Made by a program: the position numbers and the translations under genes. Shown piece by piece: positions 532 through 21,388 of a DNA stretch of 21,388 bases. Under the pieces are notes generated by a model. That model had not been told where the DNA came from, did no database searches, and saw only the letters and a program-made list of their open reading frames with translations. Every line of letters starts with the position of its first letter. Position 1 is the stretch's first letter. The stretch is from a virus. Taxonomy: Duplodnaviria > Heunggongvirae > Uroviricota > Caudoviricetes. Location: IMG/VR virus record IMGVR_UViG_3300029080_000073; one strand, written 5' to 3'.

Positions 532-545
532 TATTTTCTCCTTAA

Positions 546-1598: not shown

Positions 1599-1634
1599 GA
1601 GCGGTAATCGGTTTCTTTAACTCAAGCTCTTTCA

Positions 1635-3332: not shown

Positions 3333-3799
3333 AGGTTTTTAAATGGATTATCGCTCCCCTGCTTCGGCGTGATAAGCCGCTGCCGACTGGCAGGATCGAG
3401 TCCTAATAAACTACCGAATGTCACCATTTGTCTGGCGGCCTCATTTGCCGCCGTGAGTGCCGGGTTTTTCTTTGGCCCCGCCTCACTCTCTACCGTAATC
3501 CCAACGCGCATAACCTCCTGCTGCGACTCATGCCAGTTGCGAAAAGCAGTGCAGAATGCAACGACGTTGTGCAAATCAGTAACATAAAGAACTCGCTGGG
3601 CACAGAGCTCACGAATAATGGTGTCCCACATATGACGAGCGGTTTCATCAAACCACTCGGGAGGCTCAGCATGGGTGATCGGCGTGAATTTTGGTTCAAA
3701 CTTATTTAATGCCCGCTTGCCGGGATTGCCTGCCAGTTCCTTACGGGTAGTCGGCTTCGGCTTTCTCCCTCTTCCGGGCGCAACAGATTTTTCTGACAT
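3329..3799 (-). CDS. terminase small subunit, P27 family
   Basis: N-terminal signature [18 protein letters not shown] typical of P27-family small terminases; sits between the HNH endonuclease and large terminase genes. Confidence 0.75.
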
Positions 3800-3914
3800 G
3801 TCAAATCCTGAAATTTTTAATTTCGCGGGTGTAAAAATTTGACGAGGCGGGCGGTCCCGGACAGCCAGGGCTGCAGGGATTTGCCCCGCCCCTCCCTACA
3901 AGTGAGAATAATTA
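3800..3914. promoter_or_regulatory. candidate cos / packaging-site region between HNH and terS
   Basis: GC-rich non-coding spacer with symmetric G/C runs (ggggcgggg ... cccgcccgcc); HNH-terS-terL phages usually carry cos here. Confidence 0.25.
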
Positions 3915-4334
3915 TCACCTGATTCGTTCGCGCGCTGTTTTCGCTTTATGGCAGGGCCAGCACAGACTCTGCAGGTTGCTGTCTGCGTCTGTTCCGCCAT
4001 GCGCTTTCGGGATGATGTGGTCGACGGTTTTCGCCTCGCTCACCACACCGGCACGCAGACACAACTGACACAGACCTTTATCGCGCTTCAGAATACGGGC
4101 ACGAATCACCGTCCATTTTGAGCCATAGCCACGCTGGTGGCGGCTCAGTCCGCGCTGGTGCTGCACCCAGCCTTCACCACGATGTTTACCACAGTAGCCA
4201 GAACTGTCTGTTGTTGTGCCTGCGCAGCCTCGCTTACGACAGGCGCGGGGGATCCGTGATGGCATTGGAATCTCCTTAATACCGACATTATCGCAGCCCC
4301 TCACTGAAGAGCTGCTGTAATGCCTGTTACTCAC
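3915..4334 (-). CDS. HNH endonuclease (packaging-associated)
   Basis: HNH motif DHIIPKAHGGTDADSNLQSLCWPCHKAK with flanking Cys pairs; classic position just upstream of terS. Confidence 0.8.
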   Translation of the reverse strand: MSNRHYSSSSVRGCDNVGIKEIPMPSRIPRACRKRGCAGTTTDSSGYCGKHRGEGWVQHQRGLSRHQRGYGSKWTVIRARILKRDKGLCQLCLRAGVVSEAKTVDHIIPKAHGGTDADSNLQSLCWPCHKAKTARERIR

Positions 4335-7226: not shown

Positions 7227-7781
7227 CTAAGCGTCAGTAAAAGAAAATGCATCTCGCATCAGTGGATACAGAATAAACTCAGCTATTCTCAGCCACATAT
7301 CTATACGATTGCGGCATGTTGCATAGCACCACTCAGGGTGAACCTCATTCAACAATTCAGCCATTTTGCGTTTACTCATCCCCCGCCCTTCGTACCTTTG
7401 CCGCAGGATATCAATCAATCCAGGATAACGTGCAAGCGCTTTACTTATCACCCCATCAATGCGTAACGCCTCTGCATCAGTACAGTGAGACAACCAGCTC
7501 TTCTGTCTGCCAGCGATCATCTCTCGCAAGAATGCTTCCAGCTCTGGTTTATCAATCCCTGACTCCCTGATTCTACGCAGGGCTTCATTGATTGCGGTTT
7601 TTGTCAGTTTTTTGGATGCCAGCAACTGATTGAACATATTTCCTGGTTTGCCACCACCTATATACGACCAACGCCCCCACATCCGTAATTTCCCCTGGAT
7701 CCAGACGACTTCCAGCGTTTTTAGACGTAAATGCTCGCCGCTTTTGCCTGTAATTTCCGGATATATCATATTTACGATCAC
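7227..7781 (-). CDS. late-gene antitermination protein Q-like
   Basis: 184-aa ORF directly after RusA and before the terminator and lysis cassette, the DLP12/82 arrangement; assignment is positional plus weak recall. Confidence 0.5.
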   Translation of the reverse strand: MIVNMIYPEITGKSGEHLRLKTLEVVWIQGKLRMWGRWSYIGGGKPGNMFNQLLASKKLTKTAINEALRRIRESGIDKPELEAFLREMIAGRQKSWLSHCTDAEALRIDGVISKALARYPGLIDILRQRYEGRGMSKRKMAELLNEVHPEWCYATCRNRIDMWLRIAEFILYPLMRDAFSFTDA

Positions 7782-8143
7782 TCACTCTCAATTTTGTAAA
7801 TCTTCACGCCCAGCCGCCCCCCAGGAACGAGCTGACCGCGCACAATATTGATTTCATCAAACTGCTCGTCGTCTATGAGAAGTCCGGCATGCGTCAGCGC
7901 ATCCAGTGGTGCTTTCAGGATATTGTCCAGGTCACGACGACGTTTATCCGGTGGCTCTGCAATAATCTTTATCGCCAGCCTTCCGGACAGGTTTAATTTC
8001 AGCCGCTGCTGGCGAACAATAAGCGCCACATCACGGCGATAACGCTCACCGGCTTTTGATACAAAATATGTGCTGCCACGACGTCGCCAGTAAGTGTTCA
8101 CCGTTGGCGGGTAAGGCAAAACAAATTCTATGCGTTCAGTCAT
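7778..8143 (-). CDS. rusA: crossover junction endodeoxyribonuclease RusA (Holliday junction resolvase)
   Basis: 121 aa; motifs LPYPPTVNTYW and DKRRRDLDNILKAPLDALTHAGLLIDD match the RusA family (catalytic D-x-D-N). Confidence 0.85.
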   Translation of the reverse strand: MTERIEFVLPYPPTVNTYWRRRGSTYFVSKAGERYRRDVALIVRQQRLKLNLSGRLAIKIIAEPPDKRRRDLDNILKAPLDALTHAGLLIDDEQFDEINIVRGQLVPGGRLGVKIYKIESE

Positions 8144-9127
8144 TCATGCTTTCCACTTCAGGACACCCGAATTTCTCGCGTGCATTAAAAAACGAATCAG
8201 CAACAACAGCTGGCTGCCGTGTTTTTCTTCAAAATCTTTTACCCCGGCGTGTAGTTCGCTATGGCATTTACGGCACAGCGGAATAACAAACAAATCATCA
8301 GCCTTTGTTCCCATCCCTCCCAGTCCATGACCAATGATGTGATGCGGATCATCTGCCTGATTGCCACACGTCATGCATTTCTGCGTTTTTACCCAGCGCG
8401 TGTATACAGGCATCTCTTCCCGTTGTGGTTTCTGGCGCTGGAGATACTGAGCCGGTGACTCCGGATCAACGGCAATGCTGACCACCGTCTTTTCCTGTGG
8501 CGGGTTTTGCTGGTGGGCGTGAGGCAGTAGCGCAATACTTTTTGTGCGCTGCTTCAGCATGCTGGTGGCGGTCTGCTCTCCCGGCACGATGTCGCTCTCG
8601 CGGTATACTGAGCGAATTTTTTCCGCGCGTAATCCCAGCGAACGACGTAACACCATCTCCGGTAGTGCGTCCGCTACGTTATTTATGGTTGCCCACCAGG
8701 ATAATTCAGCCAGCGATAATTCCCGCTCCTGCGTGCCATTCATTGCGTGGCGGATGACATCAATCATCCATGCTGACAGGTTTTGGTGAGCAAGTTGCTC
8801 GAGTGATTCGGAAGTCTGGTTACGCAGCTGGTTGTCGCAGTGCCAGCACAACACCATCGCGCCGGTACCGTAACGATGTATGACGGTTTCACTGTGATGG
8901 TAGTCACCATGAGGCCACTGGCAGGATTTAACGTGGCGTAACAGCCAGTCAGACAATGCACCAGCACCACCAGCAGCACGAATCACCCGCTCATCGCTGA
9001 AAAATGGCAGTAATGATTTATCCTCCGCCAGCGGCTGGCGAACAGCAGGAACGACTCCGGACGGCAGACCGCGCATGCTTTTCGGTTCCGGCTCCACCAG
9101 AACTCGAGGGTTATGAAATACCTGCAT
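8144..9127 (-). CDS. DUF968 (YdfU-like) protein with C-terminal HNH-like zinc motif
   Basis: C-terminal CMTCGNQADDPHHIIGHGLGG...IPLCRKCHSELH motif; start uncertain (track ORF 8144..9271 overlaps the upstream gene; internal Met chosen). Confidence 0.5.
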   Translation of the reverse strand: MQVFHNPRVLVEPEPKSMRGLPSGVVPAVRQPLAEDKSLLPFFSDERVIRAAGGAGALSDWLLRHVKSCQWPHGDYHHSETVIHRYGTGAMVLCWHCDNQLRNQTSESLEQLAHQNLSAWMIDVIRHAMNGTQERELSLAELSWWATINNVADALPEMVLRRSLGLRAEKIRSVYRESDIVPGEQTATSMLKQRTKSIALLPHAHQQNPPQEKTVVSIAVDPESPAQYLQRQKPQREEMPVYTRWVKTQKCMTCGNQADDPHHIIGHGLGGMGTKADDLFVIPLCRKCHSELHAGVKDFEEKHGSQLLLLIRFLMHARNSGVLKWKA

Positions 9128-9200
9128 GGATTCACGGCCCGGTTTTAGCACCACCAGCCCAAGTTCCGGTACCGGAACAGGTCGAAGTAATACCCGCACG

Positions 9201-9608
9201 TTACCTCCAGATGCGTTGCTGGAATGTGCGGGACGGACGCGGTGGGCGTTCGGAATAAGGGAGCCTGACATAGATTATCCAGTGACGATAATCGAGGCTG
9301 AGGGCTTTCTTAATCTCGTATCCGTGTCTGCGGTAGCGCTGAATCAGCCATTCAGCCTGTTCTTCGGTGCAGGGATCGTGCTGATACCAGTCAGATTTGA
9401 ATGCATGAGAACGCCGCCCGTGCCTGCTGGCAGGGGCGGCAGAGTTATCCGAATTGTAAAATTTGGTATCGTGCGCCATCTGTTTTCTCTGCTGGCGCAG
9501 CAGGTGCCAGTTGTTCAGGCTGACGGATGGATTGTAAACCAGAACGACCAGAAAAAACAAAACCCGCCGAAGCGGGTTAAGTGCGGGTGCGTTGAGGATG
9601 CCTGACAC
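9201..9608 (-). CDS. hypothetical protein between hok and the DUF968 gene (Rem-like position)
   Basis: ORF track only; likely true start at internal MAHDTKF (about 9479). Confidence 0.3.
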   Translation of the reverse strand: MSGILNAPALNPLRRVLFFLVVLVYNPSVSLNNWHLLRQQRKQMAHDTKFYNSDNSAAPASRHGRRSHAFKSDWYQHDPCTEEQAEWLIQRYRRHGYEIKKALSLDYRHWIIYVRLPYSERPPRPSRTFQQRIWR

Positions 9609-9646: not shown

Positions 9647-9802
9647 TTACTCCTCAGGTTCGTAAGCTGTGAAGACAGCGACCTCCGTCTGGCCGGTTCG
9701 GATTCGTACCTCGCAGAGGTCTTTCCTCGTTACCAGTGCCGTCACTATGACGGTTAAACAGATGACGATCAGGGCGATTAACATCGCCTTTTGCTGCTTC
9801 AT
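9647..9802 (-). CDS. hok: Hok/Gef family type I toxin (51 aa)
   Basis: MKQQKAMLIALIVICLTVIVTALVTRKDLCEVRIRTGQTEVAVFTAYEPEE matches the Hok/Gef family throughout (TM helix plus conserved C-terminal tail). Confidence 0.9.
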   Translation of the reverse strand: MKQQKAMLIALIVICLTVIVTALVTRKDLCEVRIRTGQTEVAVFTAYEPEE

Positions 9803-9859
9803 AGCCTGCTTCTCCTTGCCTTTCGGCACGTAAGAGGCTAACCTACATTTGTGAGACAT
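9647..9859 (-). CDS. mok: mok-like overlapping reading frame
   Basis: In-frame upstream extension (MSHKCRLASYVPKGKEKQA) of the hok ORF, as in hok/mok/sok loci. Confidence 0.55.
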   Translation of the reverse strand: MSHKCRLASYVPKGKEKQAMKQQKAMLIALIVICLTVIVTALVTRKDLCEVRIRTGQTEVAVFTAYEPEE

Positions 9860-9975
9860 AGATTGGGCCTCAGATTAATGTTAAGCGTCTTGCAGGACGC
9901 GTAATGTTAACTGGGGCTTTTCTCTATCTGCCTTTTGGTGTTCATGCCTGAGACAGATAGCCTCAAGCACCCGCA
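9860..9975 (+). ncRNA. sok: hok mRNA leader / predicted Sok antisense RNA region (exact ends not mapped)
   Basis: Region upstream of mok carries GCUUGAGGCU-like 5' end and local hairpins expected of the hok leader; Sok would lie on the opposite strand here. Confidence 0.3.
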
Positions 9976-11956: not shown

Positions 11957-12922
11957 TTACCCCCTGAACCCCGGCGGAATTTCGGTATCCGGCTCAGAAA
12001 TATGATTCACGCAACGCTGTACAGACGAACGCCCCAGGCGGATAACCAGTTCATCCCATTTTTCGCGAAGCTTTGACGGACTCATGATATTTTTTACCCA
12101 GAATGGATCCCGCTGCGCCCGACCAAACATTTCACAAATTTGTCTGTGAGTTCTGCCATCCAGCATCCGCATTGTGCGCACGTCGTTGGCCCATGCGGTC
12201 CAGTTGGGTTCTTTCGGTCGCGAAATCTCGCCATCATCGCTGGCGGCCTGCTCGTAAAGACTCACGATTCGTCCCCAGATCCACTGCGCACACGCCAAAT
12301 CTTCCTGGTTGCCCCACTGGCGTTTTTTTGCACTGAACACAACCGCGTCAGGGTGTCGGGTTAAAAAATCCTGTTCAACCGTCTGCGGGTCCGGTTGCGA
12401 AGCTTCCGGACGAGAAGTGTTTTTATTCTCTGTAGTAATCTCTGTTGTATTCTCTGTAAGATCATCAGGCCATTTTGACCCGATGACATTGAGTCGTTTT
12501 GAACCAATGGAACGTGCCATTTTGGCCCCTTCCATCGTGTCATTCTGACCTGATGGAGCAGCGCATTTTGACCTGATGGATTCGCTCACTTTGCCACCAT
12601 TTAAAAGCTCGCTCTCGTAATTAATCGTGTAAAAATTAGTCATATCACGCTTTGATTTATTGAGCTTTTCGCAACGCAAAAGCCCCAGCGTTTTCAGACT
12701 TGCAAATGCGCGTTTTAACGTTGACTCTGACCAGAACGGGAACTGCTCCAGCCATTGTTCTGTTGTGTTATAAATCCAGCGAACACCATCACATTCCATG
12801 CCGGAACCGGTATCTCTCAACCAGTAATGCAACTGCTGCAACACGATGGCTTCGTTCAGACCAATTTTCATCGCCAGCTGCGTGTTTATAACCAGCGGAC
12901 GTTCAGCAAAAAGGAGCTTCAT
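11957..12922 (-). CDS. phage replication initiation protein (O-like winged-helix N-domain, DnaT-like C-region)
   Basis: N-terminal winged-helix-like segment; gene contains internal iteron-like repeats plus an AT-rich tract, like the lambda O gene with ori. Confidence 0.6.
   Translation of the reverse strand: MKLLFAERPLVINTQLAMKIGLNEAIVLQQLHYWLRDTGSGMECDGVRWIYNTTEQWLEQFPFWSESTLKRAFASLKTLGLLRCEKLNKSKRDMTNFYTINYESELLNGGKVSESIRSKCAAPSGQNDTMEGAKMARSIGSKRLNVIGSKWPDDLTENTTEITTENKNTSRPEASQPDPQTVEQDFLTRHPDAVVFSAKKRQWGNQEDLACAQWIWGRIVSLYEQAASDDGEISRPKEPNWTAWANDVRTMRMLDGRTHRQICEMFGRAQRDPFWVKNIMSPSKLREKWDELVIRLGRSSVQRCVNHISEPDTEIPPGFRG
12461..12572. repeat. iteron-like direct repeats (candidate ori) inside the replication gene
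   Basis: Three good copies of CATT(T/C)TGACC(C/T)GATG(A/G) at about 12461, 12531, 12554 plus a degenerate copy near 12508, followed by an AT-rich tract to about 12665. Confidence 0.5.
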
Positions 12923-12943
12923 CCCCCCCCCCAGAACACGTTA

Positions 12944-13369
12944 TCAATGCGCCACCACGGCATTTCCCGCCGGACCACCACGATTCATCTGATCGAACAA
13001 CACGATCGCTGCCGCAACAAACTCATCGATATCTTTCACCAGGCGCTCCCGTCGCTCGACAAGCTCCCGGTGATATTCCGAACTGTGGCTGCGCATTCGG
13101 GCCACCAGTGGAGGCGGCATTGCTTTTTCGATCGCCGGTAACAACGCCTGAATTTTTTTAACCGCATCAGGGGTGTCTTTTTCTACCCAGCGGAAAATTT
13201 TCTGGGTATTACGAGACAGGGCTTCCGGATGGCTGTCGTCATACAGTTCAGGAAACGTCATACCCAACTCAAAATAAGCCTGGGTTATTCCAGCTACTGG
13301 AACTTTTTCGCCATCAGGACGCGCCCAGGCATTCATCGCCATGCGGATGTGTTCATGCTTGATTTTCAT
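12944..13369 (-). CDS. YdaT-like protein (CII-position)
   Basis: N-terminus MKIKHEHI and size (141 aa) as remembered for Rac YdaT; directly downstream of the Cro-like gene. Confidence 0.55.
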   Translation of the reverse strand: MKIKHEHIRMAMNAWARPDGEKVPVAGITQAYFELGMTFPELYDDSHPEALSRNTQKIFRWVEKDTPDAVKKIQALLPAIEKAMPPPLVARMRSHSSEYHRELVERRERLVKDIDEFVAAAIVLFDQMNRGGPAGNAVVAH

Positions 13370-13625
13370 GAATCAACTCCGGTGCATTTGATGTGTTAAC
13401 CTTGAATCCAACAGGTAAACCGTCGGTTGGGTTAGGATAAATATCAGGGCGAATTTCATGCGGGGTAACTTCCCACTTCATTAGCTGACATAACGGAATT
13501 ACCTGCTTTGGGGGAACGTCAAAGCTAAACCATTGCCAAACTGTCTGTTGAGCGACCCCCATATAACGACCTATTTCAGCTTGAGTGTATTTCTGCCTAA
13601 TTTTTTCGCGAGTGCTATCTAGCAT
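13353..13625 (-). CDS. Cro/YdaS-like HTH regulator
   Basis: HTH segment QAEIGRYMGVAQQTVWQW; divergent from the repressor gene across the operator. Confidence 0.6.
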   Translation of the reverse strand: MLDSTREKIRQKYTQAEIGRYMGVAQQTVWQWFSFDVPPKQVIPLCQLMKWEVTPHEIRPDIYPNPTDGLPVGFKVNTSNAPELIHENQA

Positions 13626-13734: not shown

Positions 13735-14136
13735 ATGATGAACGCCCTAGAAGTATCTATGTACAGAATCAGCAAGCTTCTTCAGGAAACTGGATGGAGC
13801 CAGGCTGAGCTTGCCCGTAGAATTGGTGTGACACAACAAACTGTTCAACAATGGGTCAGCGGTAAGGCTACACCTAAAGCCTCAAGTTTGGATAAACTGG
13901 TTGAGGTTACAGGGCATCCATTGCATTGGTTTTTATTGCCTCCTGAAGAGGGGGAGCAAATTTTCACCCCTGACACGATGAAAATTGGTCCTCGTCAACG
14001 CGAACTGCTCCAGGCTTTTAGTGCGTTTCCAGAGGAAGACCAAGAAAAAATGCTTCAAGAAATCAAAGACAAGAAAAAATCAATGGAAGAAACCATTGCC
14101 CGGTGGTTGGCGGCACAAAAAAGCCGCCGGGCGTGA
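13735..14136 (+). CDS. DicA/cI-like XRE-family HTH repressor
   Basis: HTH (SQAELARRIGVTQQTVQQWVSG) plus C-terminal region laid out as in DicA; ATG sits about 7 bp after a TAAAAT -10-like hexamer, suggesting a leaderless mRNA. Confidence 0.7.
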   Translation: MMNALEVSMYRISKLLQETGWSQAELARRIGVTQQTVQQWVSGKATPKASSLDKLVEVTGHPLHWFLLPPEEGEQIFTPDTMKIGPRQRELLQAFSAFPEEDQEKMLQEIKDKKKSMEETIARWLAAQKSRRA

Positions 14137-14163: not shown

Positions 14164-14355
14164 ATGAGTACAGCCCTTTCTCCGATAGTTTCAGAATTCG
14201 AAACTACCGAACAAGAAAACAGTTACAACGAATGGTTACGCGCTAAAGTGGCGTCAAGCCTTGCAGACCCTCGTCCCTCAATTCCACATGATGAGGTAAT
14301 GGCTGAAATGGAGAATCTTATTGCTCAAATTGCTGTAACTAACAGGAGCGAGTAA
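14164..14355 (+). CDS. type II antitoxin (ParD/RelB-like)
   Basis: 63-aa ORF whose stop overlaps the toxin start (ATGA), directly upstream of a ParE/RelE-fold toxin. Confidence 0.55.
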   Translation: MSTALSPIVSEFETTEQENSYNEWLRAKVASSLADPRPSIPHDEVMAEMENLIAQIAVTNRSE

Positions 14356-14642
14356 TGTTACCCATTTTGTGGCTACCATCTGCTCGCGATGATTTGCGTC
14401 AGATCGTAGCCTATATTGCTAAGGAAAATATTCCTGCAGCACGCAGACTAAAAATACGGATTGAAACGTCTGTTTTAGCCCTCTCTGAGCATCCATATCT
14501 ATATCCGCCAAGTGATCGAGTATCCGGTTTGCGGGAAATTGTGGTTCACCCTAATTATATCGTTTTGTACCGAGTAGCAGCTTCAAGCATTGAAATTGCA
14601 AATATTGTGCATGCCCGCCGACAATTTCCCTTCCCTATCTGA
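14355..14642 (+). CDS. type II toxin, ParE/RelE superfamily
   Basis: 95 aa; DDLRQIVAYIAKENIPAARRL ... GLREIVVHPNYIVLYRV ... IANIVHARR matches the ParE/RelE pattern. Confidence 0.7.
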   Translation: MLPILWLPSARDDLRQIVAYIAKENIPAARRLKIRIETSVLALSEHPYLYPPSDRVSGLREIVVHPNYIVLYRVAASSIEIANIVHARRQFPFPI

Positions 14643-14655
14643 ACTGAACAATTTT

Positions 14656-14688
14656 CACACCCCCTCATTCGAGGGGGTTTTTTTGTCC
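14656..14688 (+). terminator. intrinsic terminator after the toxin gene
   Basis: Stem cccctc / gaggggg with 4-nt loop followed by a 7-T run. Confidence 0.65.
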
Positions 14689-14695
14689 AACACAA

Positions 14696-14738
14696 CAATT
14701 AAAAACTGTTGACACAAAACAGTTTTTAATTGTAGATT
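14696..14738 (+). promoter_or_regulatory. operator 2 overlapping a sigma70-like promoter for the ydfA-dicB operon
   Basis: Perfect 14-bp inverted repeat CAATTAAAAACTGT-tgacacaaa-ACAGTTTTTAATTG; TTGACA (14709..14714) inside it, 17-18 bp before a TAGATT-like -10. Confidence 0.55.
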
Positions 14739-14914
14739 ATTTCCACTACCCCACCCCGCCCCACAGAACGCAGGGCAATACTTCGAGTTACCCGGCAGTG
14801 GTCAGGGGTTAAGTAGCCAGCCCGAGGCGTAAGAACATGACGGCAGGGTTCAACTTTAACTATGCAGCAGGTTTTTGTTCCGCTACCCCGGCGTTAAGGG
14901 GAAATGAGGTCAGC

Positions 14915-15070
14915 ATGGATACTATCGATCTTGGCAACAACGAATCTCTGGTGTGCGGCGTGTTTCCCAATCAGGACGGCACGTTCACCGCGATGACGTA
15001 TACCAAAAGCAAAACGCTTAAAACCGAAAATGGTGCCCGTCGCTGGCTGGAAAGAAACTCAGGTGAGTGA
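14915..15070 (+). CDS. ydfA: YdfA-like small protein (51 aa)
   Basis: Internal Met MDTIDLGNNESLVCGV... preceded by GAGGT; length and position match Qin ydfA (track ORF 14837..15070). Confidence 0.55.
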   Translation: MDTIDLGNNESLVCGVFPNQDGTFTAMTYTKSKTLKTENGARRWLERNSGE

Positions 15071-15071
15071 T

Positions 15072-15200
15072 ATGGATTTCAACACAATCATGGAAAAGGC
15101 TTACGAAGAATACTTCGAAGGCCTTGCCGAAGGCGAAGAAGCCCTCAGCTTCAGCGAATTTAAACAGGCGCTTTCCAGTTCGGCAAAATCTAACGGCTGA
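15072..15200 (+). CDS. ydfB: YdfB-like small protein (42 aa)
   Basis: Hand translation MDFNTIMEKAYEEYFEGLAEGEEALSFSEFKQALSSSAKSNG; starts 2 bp after previous stop; below track cutoff. Confidence 0.5.
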   Translation: MDFNTIMEKAYEEYFEGLAEGEEALSFSEFKQALSSSAKSNG

Positions 15201-15229
15201 TAAGCGAAGCAGCACCGCGAGGAATCAGT

Positions 15230-15448
15230 ATGCAGAAACGAGAACCCGTCATCATCGCGCCAGACTATACCGATGATGAACTTTATGAGTGGATGCACCA
15301 GAAAATTAAGGCTGCGCAGGACCTGAAATGGGCCAATGAAGCCAGGGCTAAGCAGGCTGAAAATCTGTCCGCTCTGGAGCAGGATATCACCAATCTGGAA
15401 AAAGCAGCGGCATTAAGCATTGCCAGAATGATTACATACCCACGTTAA
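15230..15448 (+). CDS. ydfC: YdfC-like protein (72 aa)
   Basis: 72-aa ORF in the ydfA-ydfB-ydfC order of the Qin dicB operon. Confidence 0.55.
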   Translation: MQKREPVIIAPDYTDDELYEWMHQKIKAAQDLKWANEARAKQAENLSALEQDITNLEKAAALSIARMITYPR

Positions 15449-15470
15449 TGGTTAACCAACGAGGCTAATA

Positions 15471-16076
15471 ATGGAATTTAAAGATTTACCAAAAGAAATC
15501 CAGATAATTGCTGCAACGACACTCGGTGATAGTCTGGTGAAAATTGACCCGGCATACACCAAAAAAGAAACCATCGATAATATGGTTCGTAATGTGCGCA
15601 ATGCTTTTTCAGGGCTATATGGTTCTGATAATCAAAAACAGGAAAACGATATTGATGAACGGGTAATTTCTGTTTGCCTGAATGGTCATGTTATTTCAGC
15701 AATCAGAACAGAAACGGCAACTGCTTTTGATTATCTCTGCATGATTCAGAGTCTTGCCGATGTTCTGTTGAAATCAAAAGATTTAGAAAACGATGCAAAT
15801 TTACAGGGGCGCACAATAGCACATCCATATGCACATATTTTAAGCTCTGTGGATGTTAAAAATAATACCCTGCAAGTTGCTTTCGAACATTCACCGCAAG
15901 AGTTAAAAACGAAAAAAGACGATGCGGATAAAAATAATAACGATGCACCTGATTTGTTTATTATCAGCTCAAAGCTGCTGGAAATCATGAAGAGCGAGCT
16001 TGAAAAACACAACATCAAGCCCACTTCTGTAAATTTACGATGGGTAATGAGGATTATTGACGCTTCTCTGTCATAA
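15471..16076 (+). CDS. hypothetical protein (201 aa), AT-rich insertion in the dicB operon
   Basis: ORF track; AATAATGG-type RBS context; markedly AT-rich codon usage versus neighbours; no recognisable motif. Confidence 0.5.
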   Translation: MEFKDLPKEIQIIAATTLGDSLVKIDPAYTKKETIDNMVRNVRNAFSGLYGSDNQKQENDIDERVISVCLNGHVISAIRTETATAFDYLCMIQSLADVLLKSKDLENDANLQGRTIAHPYAHILSSVDVKNNTLQVAFEHSPQELKTKKDDADKNNNDAPDLFIISSKLLEIMKSELEKHNIKPTSVNLRWVMRIIDASLS

Positions 16077-16808: not shown

Positions 16809-16997
16809 ATGGAAACGTTATTACCAAACGTTAATACGTCTGAAGGTTGTTTTGAAATTGGTGTCACTATCAGTAACCCAGTATTTACTGAAGATGCCAT
16901 TAACAAGAGAAAACAAGAACGGGAGCTATTAAATAAAATATGCATTGTTTCAATGCTGGCCCGTTTACGCCTGATGCAAAAAGGATGCTGGCAATGA
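16809..16997 (+). CDS. dicB: cell division inhibitor DicB
   Basis: 62 aa; sequence METLLPNVNTSEGCFEIGVTISNPVFTEDAINKRKQERELLNKICIVSMLARLRLM... recognised as DicB. Confidence 0.8.
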   Translation: METLLPNVNTSEGCFEIGVTISNPVFTEDAINKRKQERELLNKICIVSMLARLRLMQKGCWQ

Positions 16998-17197
16998 ATA
17001 CTACATTTGCACTTGTTCTGACGGTTTTTCTTGTTTCCAGTGAACCGGTTGACATGGTTACTGGCGTATACGGCTCAATGAAAGAATGCATGGTTGCCGC
17101 AGCGGAACAGAAAATTCCCGGTAACTGTTATCCGGTCGATAAAGTTATTCACATGGATAATAACGAAATCCCGGCAGGACTTAAAACAGCACCGTAA
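16994..17197 (+). CDS. ydfD: YdfD-like small secreted/membrane protein (lysis-associated in Qin)
   Basis: Start MNTTFALVLTVFLVSS (signal-peptide-like) overlaps dicB stop by ATGA, as in Qin; track ORF 16940..17197. Confidence 0.55.
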   Translation: MNTTFALVLTVFLVSSEPVDMVTGVYGSMKECMVAAAEQKIPGNCYPVDKVIHMDNNEIPAGLKTAP

Positions 17198-17277
17198 TTA
17201 ATATCCGGTTTCATTTTTATATGCCAGCAATGGCAGGGATTTGTTCACCCTTAAATCTGTAATGAGGTTAAAACAAA

Positions 17278-19749
17278 ATGAGTAAAGTCTTTATTTGCGC
17301 CGCCATTCCGGACGAACAGGCAATAAAGGAAGAAGGTGCAGTCGCTGTAGCCACTGCCATTGAAGCCGGCGACGAACGTCGCGCCCGTGCCAAATTTACC
17401 TGGCAATTCCTGGAGCAATATCCGGCTGCTCAGGACTGCGCTTATAAATTTCTTGTCTGCGAGGATAAACCCGGCATGCCCCGCCCTGCCATCGACTCTT
17501 GGGATGCTGAATATATGCAGGAAAACCGCTGGGATGAGGAGTCAGCTTCCTTTGTCCCGGTTGAGACTGAATCAGATCCGATGAACGTCACTTTTGACAA
17601 GCTGGCCCCTGAAGTACAGAACGCTGTCATGGTTAAGTTCGACACATGTGAAAACATCACCGTTGATATGGTGATTAGTGCACAGGAACTGTTGCAGGAA
17701 GACATGGCAACATTCGACGGACATATCGTTGAAGCGTTGATGAAAATGCCAGAAGTTAACGCCATGTATCCGGAGCTTAAGCTGCATGCCATCGGGTGGG
17801 TTAAGCATAAATGTAAGCCTGGAGCTAAATGGCCCGAAATTCAGGCAGAGATGCGCATCTGGAAAAAACGTCGCGAAGGTGAACGCAAGGAAACCGGAAA
17901 ATACACGTCTGCTGCTGATCTCGTCCGCGCCAGAGCCAATCAACAGAACACTGAAAATTCAACAGGAAAAATCAGCCCGGTCATTGCTGCCACTCATCGC
18001 GAATACAAGCAGACATGGAAAACACTGGATGATGAACTGGCCTACGCTCTGTGGCCTGGTGACATTGATGCCGGAAACATTGACGGCAGCATCCATCGCT
18101 GGGCAAAAAATGAAGTTATCAACAACGACCGCGAAGACTGGAAGCGTATCTCAGCATCAATGCGCAAACAGCCTGATGCCCTTCGCTACGACCGCCAGAC
18201 TATTTTTGGCCTTGTCCGTGAGCGTCCGATCGACATTCACAAAGACCCTGTGGCACTGAACAAATACATTACTGAATACCTGACTACAAAGGGCGTGTTT
18301 GAAGATGAAGGAACAAATCAGAGCGCAACTGATACTCTCTCGTCGCCAGTACCAGAAACTGATGCAGTGGAAACGGCAATTCCGGACAACGAAAAAACCG
18401 AATGCAAAGTGGAAGTCGAACCATCTGTAGAGCGTGAGGGGCCGTTCTACTTCCTCTTCACCGACAAGGATGGCGAAAAATACGGTCGCGCAAACAAACT
18501 TTCTGGTCTGGATAAGGCGCTGTCTGCTGGGGCTACTGAAATCACGAAAGAAGAATATTTCGCCCGCAAAAACGGTACATACTCAGGTTCACAACAAAAT
18601 ACTGGTGCATCTGACACGACCGCACAACCAGGGTCAGTAAAAGTTACCGCTGACGAAGTAAACAAAATTATGCAGGCAGCCAATATCAGCCAGCCTGACG
18701 CCGATGAACTGCTTGCAGTATCACGTGGTGAATTTGTTGAAGGGATTAGCGACCCGAATGATCCGAAATGGGTTAAGGGGATCCAGACCCGCGATTCTGT
18801 GAACCAGAACCAGCAAGAAACGGAACAGAACGACCAGAAAGCGGAACAAAACAGCCCAAATACGCAACAAAACGAGCCAGAAACGAAACAACCTGAACCA
18901 GTAGTGCAACAGGAACCGGAAAAGATCTGCACCGCCTGCGGTCATAGCGGTGGCGGCAACTGCCCTGATTGTGGTGCGGTGATGGGTGACGCAACATACC
19001 AGGAAATATTCGATGGAGAGAATCAGCCTGAAGTTCAGGAAAATGATCCGGAGGAAATGGAAGGCACTGCGCATCAGCACAAGGAGAACACTGGCGGCAA
19101 TCAGCATCATGCCAGCGATAGTGAAACTGGCGAGGCGTCAGATCCCTTAATTAAGGCGAACGGTCATCATAATCTCACATCCACCAGCAGAGCGGGGATT
19201 CATCTGATGATCGACCTTGAAACCATGGGAAAAAATCCCGATGCCCCGATTATCTCAATAGGTGCAATATTTTTCGATCCGCAAACCGGAGATATGGGAC
19301 CGGAATTTAGTAAGACTATCGATCTGGAAACTGCTGGCGGAGTCATTGATCGGGACACCATTAAATGGTGGCTTAAGCAATCACGCGAAGCGCAATCTGC
19401 CATTATGACCGATGAAATCCCGTTAGATGATGCACTGTTACAATTGCGGGAATTTATCGACGAAAACTCCGGTGAATTTTTTGTTCAGGTCTGGGGAAAT
19501 GGAGCCAACTTCGACAACACGATTTTGCGCCGTTCATACGAACGGCAGGGGATCCCCTGCCCGTGGCGTTACTACAACGATCGCGATGTACGCACAATCG
19601 TTGAGCTGGGGAAAGCCATAGACTTCGATGCCAGAACGGCTATTCCATTCGAAGGTGAGCGCCATAATGCACTTGATGACGCCCGTTACCAGGCAAAATA
19701 CGTTTCAGCTATCTGGCAAAAACTGATCCCGAGTCAGGCTGATTCTTAA
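17278..19749 (+). CDS. 823-aa protein: YdfE/RecE-N-like region, zinc ribbon, C-terminal DEDDh (DnaQ-like) 3'-5' exonuclease domain
   Basis: C-terminal exonuclease motifs MIDLETMG, WGNGANFDNTIL and HNALDDARYQ; C-x2-C-x7-C-x2-C ribbon (CTACGHSGGGNCPDC); Q/E/N-rich linker. Confidence 0.7.
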   Translation: MSKVFICAAIPDEQAIKEEGAVAVATAIEAGDERRARAKFTWQFLEQYPAAQDCAYKFLVCEDKPGMPRPAIDSWDAEYMQENRWDEESASFVPVETESDPMNVTFDKLAPEVQNAVMVKFDTCENITVDMVISAQELLQEDMATFDGHIVEALMKMPEVNAMYPELKLHAIGWVKHKCKPGAKWPEIQAEMRIWKKRREGERKETGKYTSAADLVRARANQQNTENSTGKISPVIAATHREYKQTWKTLDDELAYALWPGDIDAGNIDGSIHRWAKNEVINNDREDWKRISASMRKQPDALRYDRQTIFGLVRERPIDIHKDPVALNKYITEYLTTKGVFEDEGTNQSATDTLSSPVPETDAVETAIPDNEKTECKVEVEPSVEREGPFYFLFTDKDGEKYGRANKLSGLDKALSAGATEITKEEYFARKNGTYSGSQQNTGASDTTAQPGSVKVTADEVNKIMQAANISQPDADELLAVSRGEFVEGISDPNDPKWVKGIQTRDSVNQNQQETEQNDQKAEQNSPNTQQNEPETKQPEPVVQQEPEKICTACGHSGGGNCPDCGAVMGDATYQEIFDGENQPEVQENDPEEMEGTAHQHKENTGGNQHHASDSETGEASDPLIKANGHHNLTSTSRAGIHLMIDLETMGKNPDAPIISIGAIFFDPQTGDMGPEFSKTIDLETAGGVIDRDTIKWWLKQSREAQSAIMTDEIPLDDALLQLREFIDENSGEFFVQVWGNGANFDNTILRRSYERQGIPCPWRYYNDRDVRTIVELGKAIDFDARTAIPFEGERHNALDDARYQAKYVSAIWQKLIPSQADS

Positions 19750-19821
19750 TGTTCAACTGTCGCCGGTTGTGACTGGTATTCTGCAACCGGCGCTCGTCTG
19801 ATGTAAGAGATAAAGAAATCG

Positions 19822-20073
19822 ATGAGCGAAGTAATCATGATTGTCTCTCCCGGCAAATGGGTATCCGAAGAGCAGTTAATTGCGCTGAAAGGAATAAAAA
19901 AAGGTACGTTAAAAAAGGCCCGGGAAAAATCGTTTATGGAAGGAAGGGAATATAAGCATGTCGCTCATGACGGTATGCCATGGGATAACAGTCCATGCTT
20001 TTACAACCTGGAAGAAATTGATCGCTGGATTGAGCGCCAGGCATCAGCAAGACCAAGACGTCATCTTACTTGA
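19822..20073 (+). CDS. xis: excisionase-like protein
   Basis: 83-aa basic ORF immediately upstream of the integrase gene; positional plus weak family recall. Confidence 0.55.
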   Translation: MSEVIMIVSPGKWVSEEQLIALKGIKKGTLKKAREKSFMEGREYKHVAHDGMPWDNSPCFYNLEEIDRWIERQASARPRRHLT

Positions 20074-20092: not shown

Positions 20093-21388
20093 ATGAGAGA
20101 AGTTGAAATGAAATATCCGACAGGCGTGGAAAACCATGGAGGGAAATTACGTATCTGGTTTGTTTATAAAGGCGTAAGAGTCAGGGAAAACCTGGGGGTT
20201 CCTGACACAGCAAAAAACAGGCGCGTTGCAGGTGAGCTACGCGCCTCTGTTTGTTACGCAATAAAAACTGGTGTTTTCGACTATGCAAAACAGTTTCCCT
20301 CCTCACGCAATCTGGAAAAATTTGGTGAGGCCCGACAAGATTTAACCATAAAAGAACTGGCTGAAAAATTTCTGGCACTGAAAGAAACTGAAGTCGCAAA
20401 AACATCACTCAACACATACCGTGCCGTCATCAAAAATATCCTGAGCATAATCGGTGAAAAAAATCTTGCCTCATCGATTAATAAAGAAAAATTACTGGAG
20501 GTTCGTAAAGAGCTACTGACTGGATACCAGATCCCCAAAAGTAACTATATTGTTACACAACCAGGGAGATCGGCTGTAACTGTAAATAATTACATGACAA
20601 ATCTTAACGCCGTGTTCCAGTTTGGTGTTGATAACGGTTACCTGGCAGATAACCCGTTTAAGGGGATCTCGCCATTAAAGGAATCAAGAACCATTCCGGA
20701 TCCTCTTTCGCGGGAGGAATTCATCCGTCTTATCGATGCGTGCAGAAATCAGCAAGCCAAAAATTTATGGTGTGTTTCTGTTTATACTGGCGTTCGCCCT
20801 GGTGAGCTGTGTGCACTTGGATGGGAGGACATAGATCTGAAAAATGGAACAATGATGATCAGGAGAAATTTAGCAAAAGACCGTTTCACGGTACCAAAAA
20901 CACAGGCGGGAACCAATCGGGTCATTCATCTTATTAAGCCAGCAATCGACGCTCTCCGGAGTCAGATGACATTAACGAGACTGAGCAAAGAGCATATCAT
21001 TGATGTTCACCTCAGAGAGTATGGCAGAACAGAAAAACATAAATGCACCTTTGTTTTTCAACCTGAAGTGTCAGCGAGAGTAAAAAATTATGGTGACCAT
21101 TTTACCGTTGACTCAATAAGGCAGATGTGGGACGCAGCGATAAAACGTGCCGGACTCCGCCATCGAAAATCATATCAGTCGAGACATACTTATGCCTGCT
21201 GGTCGCTGACAGCTGGTGCTAACCCAGCATTTATAGCAAACCAGATGGGCCATGCAGATGCGCAAATGGTATTTCAGGTATACGGAAAATGGATGTCTGA
21301 AAACAATAATGCACAGGTAGCTTTGTTAAATACACAGTTAAGCGAGTTTGCCCCAACCATGCCCCATAACGAAGCAATGAAAAATTAA
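20093..21388 (+). CDS. int: phage integrase, tyrosine recombinase
   Basis: Catalytic-domain pattern: Arg in YTGVRPGE, H-x-x-R in SRHTYACW, terminal Tyr in QVYGKWM; N-terminal arm-binding-like region; last gene before window end. Confidence 0.9.
   Translation: MREVEMKYPTGVENHGGKLRIWFVYKGVRVRENLGVPDTAKNRRVAGELRASVCYAIKTGVFDYAKQFPSSRNLEKFGEARQDLTIKELAEKFLALKETEVAKTSLNTYRAVIKNILSIIGEKNLASSINKEKLLEVRKELLTGYQIPKSNYIVTQPGRSAVTVNNYMTNLNAVFQFGVDNGYLADNPFKGISPLKESRTIPDPLSREEFIRLIDACRNQQAKNLWCVSVYTGVRPGELCALGWEDIDLKNGTMMIRRNLAKDRFTVPKTQAGTNRVIHLIKPAIDALRSQMTLTRLSKEHIIDVHLREYGRTEKHKCTFVFQPEVSARVKNYGDHFTVDSIRQMWDAAIKRAGLRHRKSYQSRHTYACWSLTAGANPAFIANQMGHADAQMVFQVYGKWMSENNNAQVALLNTQLSEFAPTMPHNEAMKN

What the first reader, a model, noticed from the sequence alone, without database searches (positions are those of the whole stretch)
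17278..19749. Large multi-domain exonuclease: N-terminal region, Q/E/N-rich linker, zinc ribbon, DEDDh 3'-5' exonuclease
The gene sits where RecE/YdfE sits in Rac/Qin, but the catalytic end shows DnaQ-like motifs (D-x-E, D, H-x4-D) rather than the RecB-fold nuclease of canonical RecE. No RecT-like annealase follows. It could be a recombination or a nucleic-acid-degrading defence/anti-defence enzyme.
Basis: partly seen in the sequence, partly recalled or inferred. Interest (0 to 1): 0.5.

Follow-up and report, generated by a model that had tools for sequence, protein, structure and literature searches.

The report
Intact prophage YdfE: RecE-scaffold DEDDh exonuclease
This is the intact form of the E. 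coli prophage gene ydfE, a very common, already annotated but never characterised protein in which the non-catalytic front part of the recombination nuclease RecE carries a T4 DexA-type 3'-5' exonuclease instead of RecE's own nuclease.

Summary
Window 17278-19749 (+) is one 823-aa gene. It has four confidently predicted N-terminal domains of unknown fold, a Q/E/N-rich linker, a CxxC-x7-CxxC zinc ribbon and a C-terminal DEDDh exonuclease (Pfam PF16473, E=4e-67; D646, E648, D746, H796, D801). Residues 1-256 are 95% identical to the IS2-truncated K-12 pseudogene ydfE. Residues 262-625 match RecE 278-591, and the match stops where RecE's PD-(D/E)XK nuclease begins. No annealase follows; the order is dicB, ydfD, exo, xis, int. 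DNA of the DEDDh domain occurs in 75% of complete E. coli genomes, against 32% for the RecE nuclease, and is annotated there as 'exonuclease'. DnaQ-type nucleases next to int in lambdoid phages were noted in 2025, so the architecture is already known. New here: the RecE/YdfE front modules combine freely with three alternative C-termini, namely DEDDh, PD-(D/E)XK and a tentatively Rad52-like domain. Best reading (about 0.45): a DNA 3'-5' exonuclease of the repressed early-left operon that processes DNA ends during phage recombination or replication. A defence role against modified phage DNA, as reported for the homologue EcD, is the main rival; its signature residues are not conserved here. Function is untested.

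The parts
17278..19749 (+). Complete CDS, 823 aa: the intact YdfE-type exonuclease
   Evidence: PHROG 2082 matched end to end. 98% DNA identity to E. coli genes annotated 'exonuclease' or '3'-5' exoribonuclease domain-containing protein'.
17264..17267 (+). GAGG ribosome-binding site, 10 nt before the ATG
   Evidence: Read directly from the sequence.
17278..18057 (+). YdfE-type N-terminal module, aa 1-260. It holds an alpha/beta domain (aa 1-95) and a helical domain (aa 105-227).
18058..18687 (+). Middle module shared with RecE, aa 261-470. It holds a helical domain (aa 245-340), a disordered stretch (aa 345-383) and a small beta-hairpin/helix domain (aa 388-432).
   Evidence: BLASTP against K-12 RecE 278-591. 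NCBIfam PRK09709 matches only over aa 238-626. AF2 model. Found in 50%-cluster representatives that carry any of the three C-terminal domain types.
18724..18774 (+). Conserved short motif RGEFVEGISDPNDPKWV, aa 483-499. Candidate protein-interaction motif; partner unknown.
   Evidence: Near-identical motif in K-12 RecE and in the diverged representatives P0255, P0306, P0365, P0371 and P0373.
18778..18927 (+). Q/E/N-rich low-complexity linker, aa 501-550
   Evidence: Composition Q 23%, E 15%, N 12%.
18928..18972 (+). Zinc ribbon C551-x2-C554-x7-C562-x2-C565
   Evidence: Conserved in K-12 RecE (C517...C531), but present in only 2 of 61 family representatives.
18973..19197 (+). Acidic, His-rich linker, aa 566-640. 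RecE homology ends here, at RecE residue about 591.
   Evidence: composition.
19201..19716 (+). DEDDh 3'-5' exonuclease domain of the Rv2179c/DexA family, aa 642-813. Catalytic codons: D646 (19213-19215), E648 (19219-19221), D746 (19513-19515), H796 (19663-19665), D801 (19678-19680).
   Evidence: Pfam PF16473, E=3.8e-67. PDB hit to 8KEL/8KEN, a 227-aa 'Exodeoxyribonuclease' chain, E=1e-6; Kang et al. (PMC12153337) describe crystal structures of T4 DexA, itself 227 aa. Alignment A1.
19573..19575 (+). Codon Y766, aligned with T4 DexA W152. It is the most variable position of the domain among close homologues.
16809..16997 (+). dicB (62 aa), upstream gene of the same operon
   Evidence: Pfam DicB, E=3e-40.
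16994..17197 (+). ydfD-like DUF1482 gene. The likely start overlaps the dicB stop.
   Evidence: Pfam DUF1482, PHROG 1092, translation.
19822..20073 (+). Excisionase (DUF1233), directly downstream
20093..21388 (+). Tyrosine integrase; runs to the end of the window
14709..14738 (+). Sigma-70-like promoter TTGACA-18-TAGATT inside a 39-bp palindrome (14695-14733). It follows a strong terminator (14659-14678). Candidate repressor-controlled promoter of the dicB-exo-xis-int operon.
   Evidence: The position matches the dicA/ydfA interval of Qin. Function is inferred, not shown.

Best explanation
The gene encodes a modular phage DNA exonuclease.

Shown:
- The last 180 residues are a complete DEDDh (DnaQ-like) 3'-5' exonuclease of the Rv2179c/DexA family.
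- The first roughly 630 residues are the non-catalytic scaffold that RecE-family proteins carry. It consists of four folded domains of unknown function, one conserved short motif, low-complexity linkers and a zinc ribbon.
- The join lies exactly at the boundary where RecE's own PD-(D/E)XK nuclease would start.
- The gene is the last cargo gene before xis-int in a dicB-type early-left operon of a lambdoid prophage.

Inferred:
- The operon is repressed in the lysogen and expressed on induction or infection.
- The scaffold brings the enzyme, probably as a dimer like DexA and Rv2179c, to DNA ends or recombination/replication intermediates.
- The DEDDh domain removes nucleotides from 3' ends with two-metal chemistry.
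- It thereby trims 3' tails or recesses 3' strands during recombination-dependent phage DNA metabolism.
- It works with host recombination functions (RecBCD/RecA; these phages are Chi-rich) rather than with a phage annealase.
For: - Catalytic domain and residues.
- T4 DexA, annotated in its record as a 3'-to-5' DNA exonuclease and assayed on DNA by Kang et al. (PMC12153337), belongs to the same Pfam family (E=2e-22). The Pfam name 'exoribonuclease' therefore does not fix the substrate.
- RecE homology covers aa 262-625 and ends at the RecE nuclease border. The review PMC11611040 states that the RecE N-terminal part is of unknown function but enhances linear-linear recombination.
- Among 61 long 50%-cluster representatives, the same front modules carry a DEDDh domain, a RecE-type nuclease, or a third domain. 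The third domain shows a sub-threshold Rad52 signature: Pfam Rad52_Rad22 E=0.004 in 4 of 7 members, and hhalign against human RAD52 E=0.027 over 114 collinear columns.
- The stand-alone form of that third domain sits beside an RNase_T-type exonuclease, SSB and RdgC genes in Pseudomonas phage phiC725A. In phage ZF40 the fused form is followed by Gp157.
- The synteny dicB-ydfD-exo-xis-int is conserved across prophages with different integrases.
- Sequenced phages mEp460, Tritos, HannyBb and Evi carry the gene. mEp460 has no annotated annealase.
- Chi octamers are enriched: 7 against 2 in mEp460, and 11 in the window against about 0.7 expected. This fits the 'no Rec module, many Chi' class of PMC12315714, which also reports DnaQ-type nuclease genes in lambdoid Rec modules and near int.
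Against: - There is no experiment on this protein.
- 3'-5' exonucleases usually inhibit rather than promote homologous recombination (noted in PMC12315714).
- PMC12315714 did not count int-proximal DnaQ-type genes as Rec-module members.
- No partner annealase is present.
- The Rad52-like assignment of the alternative C-terminus is below significance thresholds.
- The folds of the N-terminal domains gave no functional clue.
- The neighbours dicB and ydfD are host-takeover or exclusion genes, not recombination genes.
- A stand-alone homologue, EcD, was reported as an anti-T4 defence nuclease (PMC12153337).
- Repression of the operon in lysogens is carried over from Qin (my own knowledge of the dicB operon), not shown here.
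Confidence: 0.45

Rival explanations
1. Defence or superinfection-exclusion nuclease. The DEDDh domain selectively degrades invading phage DNA, for example hydroxymethylated or otherwise modified DNA. This is what Kang et al. 2025 report for the stand-alone E. coli DexA homologue EcD ('HREX').
For: - PMC12153337 reports that plasmid-borne EcD digests T4 DNA, spares unmodified DNA, and protects against T4.
- The window domain belongs to the same family as DexA.
- The gene is present in 75% of complete E. coli genomes, often in several copies, as expected for a prophage-borne benefit.
- The neighbour dicB is itself known to block some phages (my own knowledge).
- Position 766, aligned with the proposed base-recognition residue W152, is the most variable site of the domain: H, Y, C, T or S among proteins at least 90% identical.
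Against: - The HREX signature is not met in alignment A1: W152 aligns with Tyr, D169 with Ala, and the tetramer residue D90 is retained as Asp. That alignment is only about 25% identical there.
- No full-length homologue has Trp at that site.
- The protein is a large fusion, not a 190-aa stand-alone enzyme.
- It lies inside a phage early operon next to xis-int and is probably silent in lysogens.
- The only PADLOC match is a weak generic DEDDh model.
- An exonuclease needs DNA ends, and EcD itself is supported by one study only.
- Variability at site 766 is matched in parsimony steps by other sites, so mosaic recombination may explain it.
Confidence: 0.2
2. RNA exonuclease, as the Pfam name says. 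It trims or degrades 3' ends of host or phage RNAs (mRNA, sRNA such as DicF, tRNA) or short oligoribonucleotides during lytic growth.
For: - The family founder, Rv2179c, was characterised as a 3'-5' exoribonuclease (my own knowledge of Abendroth et al. 2014; the Pfam name appears).
- RefSeq names the protein '3'-5' exoribonuclease domain-containing protein'.
- The operon type processes an sRNA (DicF) in Qin (my own knowledge).
Against: - The only phage member with biochemistry, T4 DexA, is a DNase (PMC12153337; record note).
- The scaffold is shared with a DNA nuclease (RecE) and with a putative annealase.
- No DicF was detected in this window at Rfam gathering thresholds.
Confidence: 0.12
3. 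Host-DNA scavenging or anti-defence. The enzyme degrades host DNA fragments to nucleotides, as one of DexA's roles does. Alternatively it destroys nucleic-acid components of host defence systems, such as retron msDNA, guide RNAs or linear oligonucleotide signals.
For: - DexA's established role in host DNA scavenging (PMC12153337).
- Expression is probably early in lytic growth (operon position).
- The domain is widespread in virulent and temperate phages: 1625 of 50,697 records.
Against: - Temperate lambdoid phages do not degrade the host chromosome (established knowledge).
- No known anti-defence family matched.
- This does not explain the RecE-type scaffold or its alternative fusion partners.
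Confidence: 0.1

Closest known systems
YdfE of E. coli K-12 Qin prophage (pseudogene b1577) and its intact RefSeq homologues ('exonuclease'; PHROG 2082)
   Same: - Same gene: aa 1-256 are 95% identical to the K-12 remnant.
- Full-length homologues are 90-98% identical.
- Same neighbours: dicB, ydfD, xis/int.
   Different: The K-12 copy is cut by IS2 after codon 256 and lacks everything downstream, including the nuclease. No exact copy of the window protein is on record.
RecE / exonuclease VIII of Rac prophage
   Same: - Same slot in the early-left operon near xis-int.
- The central region, the conserved RGEFV.GISDPNDPKWV motif, the zinc ribbon and the acidic linker are homologous: aa 262-625 against RecE 278-591, nearly identical from aa 470 on.
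   Different: - The catalytic domain is DEDDh (3'-5') instead of PD-(D/E)XK PF12684 (5'-3').
- The N-terminal 260 aa are of a different type; there is no PF06630 match.
- No recT follows.
T4 DexA (exonuclease A; PDB 8KEL/8KEN) and the E. coli homologue EcD
   Same: Same Pfam family and the same five catalytic residues.
   Different: - About 25-28% identity.
- DexA and EcD are stand-alone proteins of about 190-227 aa.
- The residues proposed for 5hmC recognition and tetramer control are not conserved here.
Mycobacterium tuberculosis Rv2179c (founder of PF16473)
   Same: Profile match over the whole domain.
   Different: Rv2179c is a stand-alone bacterial RNase. The window protein is a phage multi-domain fusion. 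Its substrate is untested.
DnaQ-type nucleases of lambdoid phages described by Zheng et al. 2025 (PMC12315714)
   Same: A 3'-5' DnaQ-like nuclease gene in the early-left operon, close to int, in phages that may lack a canonical Rec module.
   Different: That paper does not describe the RecE-scaffold fusion. It left the int-proximal genes, and the nuclease-less 'RecE-2' proteins, uninterpreted.

Membership tests
DEDDh (DnaQ-like) exonucleases, Pfam PF16473 Rv2179c-like | Profile match above the curated cut-off | tested here: met
   225.9 bits against a cut-off of 27, covering profile positions 2-177 of 177.
DEDDh (DnaQ-like) exonucleases, Pfam PF16473 Rv2179c-like | Exo I (D-x-E), Exo II (D) and Exo III (H-x4-D) acidic and His residues | tested here: met
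   D646, E648, D746, H796 and D801 align with DexA D7, E9, D119, H186 and D191, and are invariant in A1.
DEDDh (DnaQ-like) exonucleases, Pfam PF16473 Rv2179c-like | Metal-dependent 3'-5' exonuclease activity and its substrate (DNA or RNA) | not testable with these tools
   Needs enzyme assays.
RecE / exodeoxyribonuclease VIII (NCBIfam NF007259 equivalog) | Whole-protein score at or above the equivalog cut-off | tested here: not met
   273.6 bits against a cut-off of 1269. The match covers only aa 238-626.
RecE / exodeoxyribonuclease VIII (NCBIfam NF007259 equivalog) | C-terminal PD-(D/E)XK nuclease domain (PF12684 in K-12 RecE) | tested here: not met
   Absent from the window protein. Present in K-12 RecE at aa 615-850.
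RecE / exodeoxyribonuclease VIII (NCBIfam NF007259 equivalog) | N-terminal PF06630 'Exonuc_VIII' domain | tested here: not met
   No hit. K-12 RecE has it at aa 2-178.
RecE / exodeoxyribonuclease VIII (NCBIfam NF007259 equivalog) | Cognate recT gene immediately downstream | tested here: not met
   The next genes are xis and int. In E. coli genomes the listed RecE-nuclease hits all overlap recT.
RecE / exodeoxyribonuclease VIII (NCBIfam NF007259 equivalog) | Shared central scaffold (middle module, GISDPNDPKWV motif, zinc ribbon, acidic linker) | tested here: met
HREX / EcD-type 5hmC-DNA-specific exonuclease (Kang et al. 2025) | Trp equivalent to DexA W152 | tested here: not met
   Y766 in the window protein. 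Among 119 full-length homologues the residue is H, Y, C, T or S, never W.
HREX / EcD-type 5hmC-DNA-specific exonuclease (Kang et al. 2025) | Acidic residue equivalent to DexA D169 | tested here: inconclusive
   Aligned with A780, but the alignment is unreliable in this loop. D782 and D784 lie nearby.
HREX / EcD-type 5hmC-DNA-specific exonuclease (Kang et al. 2025) | Loss of the tetramer-forming Asp (DexA D90; Ala in EcD) | tested here: inconclusive
   D718 aligns with D90, so the Asp appears retained. Local identity is low.
HREX / EcD-type 5hmC-DNA-specific exonuclease (Kang et al. 2025) | Protection against T4 and selective digestion of modified DNA | not testable with these tools
   Needs plaque assays and nuclease assays.

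The most novel reading that the evidence does not exclude
The RecE/YdfE front part (two alternative N-terminal modules plus a shared middle module and the GISDPNDPKWV motif) is a general targeting platform of phage recombination systems. Evolution has plugged into it a 5'-3' nuclease, a 3'-5' nuclease or a Rad52-like annealase.

The DEDDh version would then be the single phage-encoded recombination function of Chi-rich lambdoid phages that have no annealase. It would trim 3' ends so that host RecBCD/RecA products can prime replication.

In addition, codon 766 may be under diversifying selection because the enzyme discriminates between DNA types.
Probability: 0.2. Interest if true: 0.55.

Novelty: already known. 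Interest (0 to 1): 0.3.

Why it matters
By DNA match, this domain is more than twice as common in complete E. coli genomes as the RecE nuclease domain: 4047 against 1730 of 5426. It is present in sequenced temperate phages and in Shiga-toxin-phage-associated prophages, yet I found no experimental paper on it.

It is routinely mislabelled 'exodeoxyribonuclease VIII', because the Pfam family of that name is RecE's non-catalytic N-terminus.

Knowing what it does would address three questions:
- What the long-unexplained N-terminal 590 residues of RecE are for. That region improves linear-linear recombineering.
- How lambdoid phages without an annealase handle their DNA ends.
- Whether prophage DexA-like nucleases really act as a modification-dependent defence.

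The module-swap pattern gives ready-made natural chimeras for testing this.

Tried and rejected
- **Single-sequence AlphaFold2 of the whole protein:** useless (pLDDT 36). It cost one of two structure jobs, so the DEDDh domain and the third C-terminal domain could not be modelled.
- **Exact-sequence look-up of the protein:** nothing on record.
- **PADLOC:** only a weak generic DEDDh model.
- **Rfam:** no DicF in the window.
- **EcD:** a search for its sequence (MIDTET...TIPETYD, from the primers in the paper's supplement) among the fetched homologues found nothing. I could not measure how close EcD is to this domain.
- **Third C-terminal domain against solved structures:** sequence and profile searches gave no significant hit. 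The Rad52 link rests on sub-threshold Pfam and hhalign scores only.
- **Positive selection at codon 766:** rejected as a claim. Parsimony steps at that site (14) are matched by sites 416, 694 and 233, so recombination among alleles is an adequate explanation.
- **Zinc ribbon as a family-defining feature:** rejected. It is present in 2 of 61 representatives.
- **Literature search on ydfE:** no functional study. One search was spoiled because 'RecE' matched 'receptor'.
Full report
**1. The observation**

Window 17278-19749 (+) is a single ATG-initiated ORF of 823 codons. A GAGG ribosome-binding site lies 10 nt upstream.

The C-terminal part matches Pfam PF16473, 'Rv2179c-like 3'-5' exoribonuclease'. 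The match covers aa 642-813 with E=3.8e-67, 225.9 bits against a cut-off of 27. The match to the generic RNase_T model is weak.

I aligned the domain with T4 DexA and six stand-alone homologues. The five DEDDh residues are D646, E648, D746, H796 and D801, and all are invariant in that alignment.

- The zinc ribbon is C551-x2-C554-x7-C562-x2-C565.
- The linker at aa 501-552 is 23% Q, 15% E and 12% N.
- An acidic, His-rich linker follows, up to about aa 640.

**2. What the gene is**

Residues 1-256 are 95% identical to the product of the K-12 pseudogene ydfE (b1577). That gene is cut by IS2E in the Qin prophage. The window gene is therefore the intact form of ydfE.

Residues 262-625 align with K-12 RecE 278-591. 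Identity is 38% overall and nearly complete from aa 470 onward. This stretch includes the motif RGEFVEGISDPNDPKWV, the zinc ribbon and the acidic linker.

The homology stops where the RecE nuclease begins. [quoted passage not shown]

NCBIfam's RecE equivalog model matches only this middle part and falls far below its cut-off: 273.6 against 1269 bits. K-12 RecE has PF06630 at its N-terminus and the PD-(D/E)XK domain PF12684 at its C-terminus. The window protein has neither.

The Pfam family called 'Exonuc_VIII' (PF06630) is thus a non-catalytic N-terminal domain. This explains why DEDDh proteins of this group are often annotated 'exodeoxyribonuclease VIII'.

**3. Genomic context**

The window is the regulatory and early-left part of a lambdoid prophage. 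The genes and signals, in order, are:

| Feature | Coordinates | Strand |
|---|---|---|
| YdaS/YdaT-type genes and a replication O-like gene | 11957-13625 | - |
| DicA-like HTH repressor | 13735-14136 | + |
| PaaA2/ParE toxin-antitoxin pair | 14164-14642 | + |
| Strong terminator | 14659-14678 | + |
| Promoter-like site TTGACA-18-TAGATT, inside a 39-bp palindrome | 14709-14738 | + |
| DUF1391 gene, then two genes of unknown function | 14837-16076 | + |
| dicB | 16809-16997 | + |
| ydfD-like gene | 16994-17197 | + |
| The exonuclease | 17278-19749 | + |
| Excisionase | 19822-20073 | + |
| Integrase | 20093 to the window end | + |

No RecT, Redβ, Erf or other recognisable annealase is present.

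The same order, dicB-ydfD-exo-xis-int, recurs in several places:
- at the Qin site in other E. coli strains;
- in phage mEp460;
- in prophages with unrelated integrases.

By analogy with the dicB operon of Qin, which DicA represses (my own knowledge), the gene is probably silent in lysogens and expressed on induction. This is inferred, not shown.

**4. Distribution**

| Query | Complete E. coli genomes with a match covering at least 80% of the query (of 5426) | Notes |
|---|---|---|
| Full-length gene | 3533 | |
| DEDDh-domain DNA | 4047 | up to 7 copies per genome |
| K-12 RecE nuclease-domain DNA | 1730 | every listed hit overlaps recT |

- RefSeq calls the protein 'exonuclease', '3'-5' exonuclease' or '3'-5' exoribonuclease domain-containing protein'.
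- It has its own PHROG, number 2082.
- Newer Pfam releases assign two further families, PF27430 and PF27432, to it. They appear in the precomputed columns but are not in the local library.
- It occurs in the sequenced phages mEp460, Tritos, HannyBb, Evi and PhiR42_1, and in the PPompW prophages associated with Stx2a phages.
- The DEDDh domain alone is found in 1625 of 50,697 phage records, including T4 DexA at 28% identity.
- It also occurs as stand-alone proteins of 180-190 aa in enterobacteria.

**5. What the literature says**

I found no functional study of ydfE. Two recent papers are relevant.

Kang et al. 2025 (PMC12153337) solved T4 DexA. The PDB sequence hits 8KEL/8KEN, 227-aa 'Exodeoxyribonuclease' chains, presumably come from that work. 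They report that a stand-alone E. coli homologue, EcD, digests 5hmC-containing T4 DNA, spares unmodified DNA, and protects against T4. They call this 'HREX'. They name W152 and D169 as recognition residues and D90 as the tetramer switch.

Zheng et al. 2025 (PMC12315714) make three relevant points:
- Sporadic DnaQ-type nuclease genes lie 'very near int'.
- 'RecE-2' proteins related to RecE lack a nuclease domain.

They also describe a class of lambdoid phages that have no Rec module but many Chi sites and that profit from RecBCD.

**6. New comparative evidence**

I ran an exhaustive HMMER search of 1.84 billion cluster representatives with aa 1-470. It found only 194 clusters, so the scaffold is a narrow family.

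I then probed the 61 long members with six domain probes. The results show free combination. Either N-terminal type (YdfE-type aa 1-260, or RecE-type PF06630) is followed by the shared middle module. After that comes one of three C-termini:
- the DEDDh domain, for example P0143, P0243, P0260, P0350, P0374;
- the RecE-type nuclease, for example P0262, P0301, P0347, P0249;
- a third domain of about 285 aa, in about 30 representatives (18 carry its TSIN core motif), for example P0248, P0251, P0254, P0365. This is PHROG 2489 and includes Pectobacterium phage ZF40 gp07.

The third domain has no Pfam hit at E<=0.001. It contains the invariant stretch E-x2-KKSLTD-x3-K-x-LS-x-LGF-x-AD (consensus DGEAxKKSLTDAxKKALSxLGFSAD). 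The evidence that it is Rad52-like is sub-threshold:
- Pfam Rad52_Rad22 matches this stretch below threshold in 4 of 7 members; best E=0.004, 17.5 against 20.3 bits.
- hhalign against human RAD52 gives E=0.027 over 114 collinear columns. I checked that RAD52 sequence and it is identical to PDB 1KN0. HHalign's own probability is low because the template is a single sequence.

The genomic neighbours of the third domain point the same way:
- Its stand-alone form in Pseudomonas phage phiC725A is followed by a DUF1351 gene, an RNase_T-type DEDDh exonuclease, SSB and RdgC.
- ZF40 gp07 is followed by a Gp157 gene.

I regard the Rad52-like annealase reading as probable but unproven. These proteins are probably the 'RecE-2' proteins of Zheng et al.; that identification is my inference.

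Taken together, the scaffold is used with a 5'-3' DNA nuclease, a 3'-5' nuclease and a probable annealase. This argues that the scaffold serves DNA recombination or end processing, whatever it carries.

**7. Structure of the scaffold**

AlphaFold2 with a 27-sequence alignment of aa 1-470 gave mean pLDDT 83.9. It shows four confident domains:
- an alpha/beta domain, aa 1-95;
- a helical domain, aa 105-227;
- a second helical domain, aa 245-340;
- a small beta-hairpin/helix domain, aa 388-432.

They are separated by low-confidence linkers at aa 223-236, 345-383 and 439-455.

Two linker features differ in how widely they are conserved:
- The motif at aa 483-499 is conserved in RecE and in five diverged representatives. 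It is a candidate docking motif.
- The zinc ribbon occurs in only 2 of 61 representatives, so it is a feature of the E. coli lineage.

**8. Weighing the functions**

*DNA or RNA.* T4 DexA is annotated as a 3'-to-5' DNA exonuclease and was assayed on DNA by Kang et al. It belongs to PF16473, so the Pfam name does not settle the substrate. The scaffold's other partners act on DNA. I therefore favour DNA.

*Recombination or defence.* These points favour recombination or end processing:
- the scaffold argument in section 6;
- the position of the gene in the early-left operon;
- its presence in phages without an annealase;
- Chi enrichment: mEp460 has 7 Chi on one strand and 2 on the other, and the window has 11 where about 0.7 is expected by chance.

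These points count against it:
- 3'-5' exonucleases normally reduce recombination.
- Zheng et al. did not count int-proximal DnaQ genes as Rec functions.

These points favour defence:
- the EcD report;
- the very high prevalence of the gene;
- the neighbourhood of dicB;
- position 766, aligned with DexA W152, which is the most variable site of the domain among 120 close full-length homologues (H41/Y33/C29/T16/S2).

These points count against defence:
- The HREX signature is not met. W152 aligns with Tyr, D169 with Ala, and D90 is retained. None of the full-length homologues has Trp.
- The parsimony count at site 766 (14 steps) is equalled by sites 416, 694 and 233, as expected from mosaic recombination.
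- The gene probably is not expressed in lysogens.

My estimates:

| Reading | Probability |
|---|---|
| DNA 3'-end processing in phage recombination or replication | 0.45 |
| Defence or exclusion | 0.2 |
| RNase | 0.12 |
| Scavenging or anti-defence | 0.1 |
| Unassigned | remainder |

**9. Verdict**

The protein is an already annotated, extremely common prophage protein, so its novelty as a finding is low. Its function is truly unknown.

The useful additions from this work are:
- its identification as intact YdfE;
- the exact RecE domain swap at the nuclease boundary;
- the combinatorial use of the scaffold with three different C-termini, one of them probably a Rad52-like annealase;
- the failure of the published HREX signature in this subfamily;
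- the recognition that the 'exonuclease VIII' label is an annotation artefact.

Noticed in passing
related proteins P0248, P0251, P0254, P0365 and others; L009:3696-5861 (Pectobacterium phage ZF40 gp07); L008:3983-4738 (Pseudomonas phage phiC725A): A third domain of about 285 aa replaces the nuclease on the RecE/YdfE scaffold in about 30 cluster representatives. It carries a Rad52-like motif (KKSLTDAxKKALSxLGF). Pfam Rad52_Rad22 gives a sub-threshold E=0.004, and hhalign against RAD52 gives E=0.027. PHROGs annotates it 'exonuclease' (family 2489). It is probably an annealase, and probably the 'RecE-2' protein of Zheng et al. 2025.
   Followed up: partly
window 19573-19575 (codon 766): The residue aligned with DexA W152 is hypervariable among homologues at least 90% identical (H, Y, C, T or S; entropy 2.0 bits). 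It shows 14 parsimony steps, but three other sites show as many. Selection and recombination cannot be told apart here.
   Followed up: partly
window 18724-18774 (aa 483-499): The short motif RGEFVEGISDPNDPKWV lies in a poorly structured linker. It is conserved in K-12 RecE and in five diverged family representatives. It is a candidate docking motif for an unknown partner.
   Followed up: partly
whole window; L005 (mEp460): Chi octamers (GCTGGTGG) are strongly enriched. The window has 5 on the + strand and 6 on the - strand in 21.4 kb, against about 0.33 expected per strand. mEp460 has 7 against 2. One Chi lies inside the exonuclease gene, at 19181 on the - strand.
   Followed up: partly
window 9647-9972 (-): A hok/sok-type toxin-antitoxin locus: sok RNA (Rfam RF01794, 120 bits) at 9797-9972, and a Hok/MokW-like ORF at 9647-9859.
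   Followed up: no
window 14164-14738 (+): A PaaA2/ParE toxin-antitoxin pair is inserted between the repressor gene and the early-left promoter region. It is followed by a strong terminator (14659-14678) and a promoter-like site inside a 39-bp palindrome (14695-14733).
   Followed up: no
window 19761-19792 (+): A perfect 9-bp hairpin (CGCCGGTTG / CAACCGGCG, 14-nt loop) lies between the exonuclease stop codon and the xis start. It has no U tract. It may be an RNA processing or stability element.
   Followed up: no
window 1-4334 (-): A Mu/P2-type baseplate gene (546-1598: Gp44-like and GpP domains) and neighbouring ORFs lie only a few kb from the lambdoid Q/RusA/DUF968 region (7227-9271). This suggests a mosaic or rearranged prophage.
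   Followed up: no
L010:3673-6114 (phage vB_EcoS-689R5); P0260; K-12 RecE (L003:5787-8387, - strand): Pfam PF06630 'Exonuc_VIII' is the non-catalytic N-terminus of RecE. Natural hybrids of PF06630 with the PF16473 DEDDh domain exist. This is the likely reason DEDDh proteins are annotated 'exodeoxyribonuclease VIII'.
   Followed up: yes
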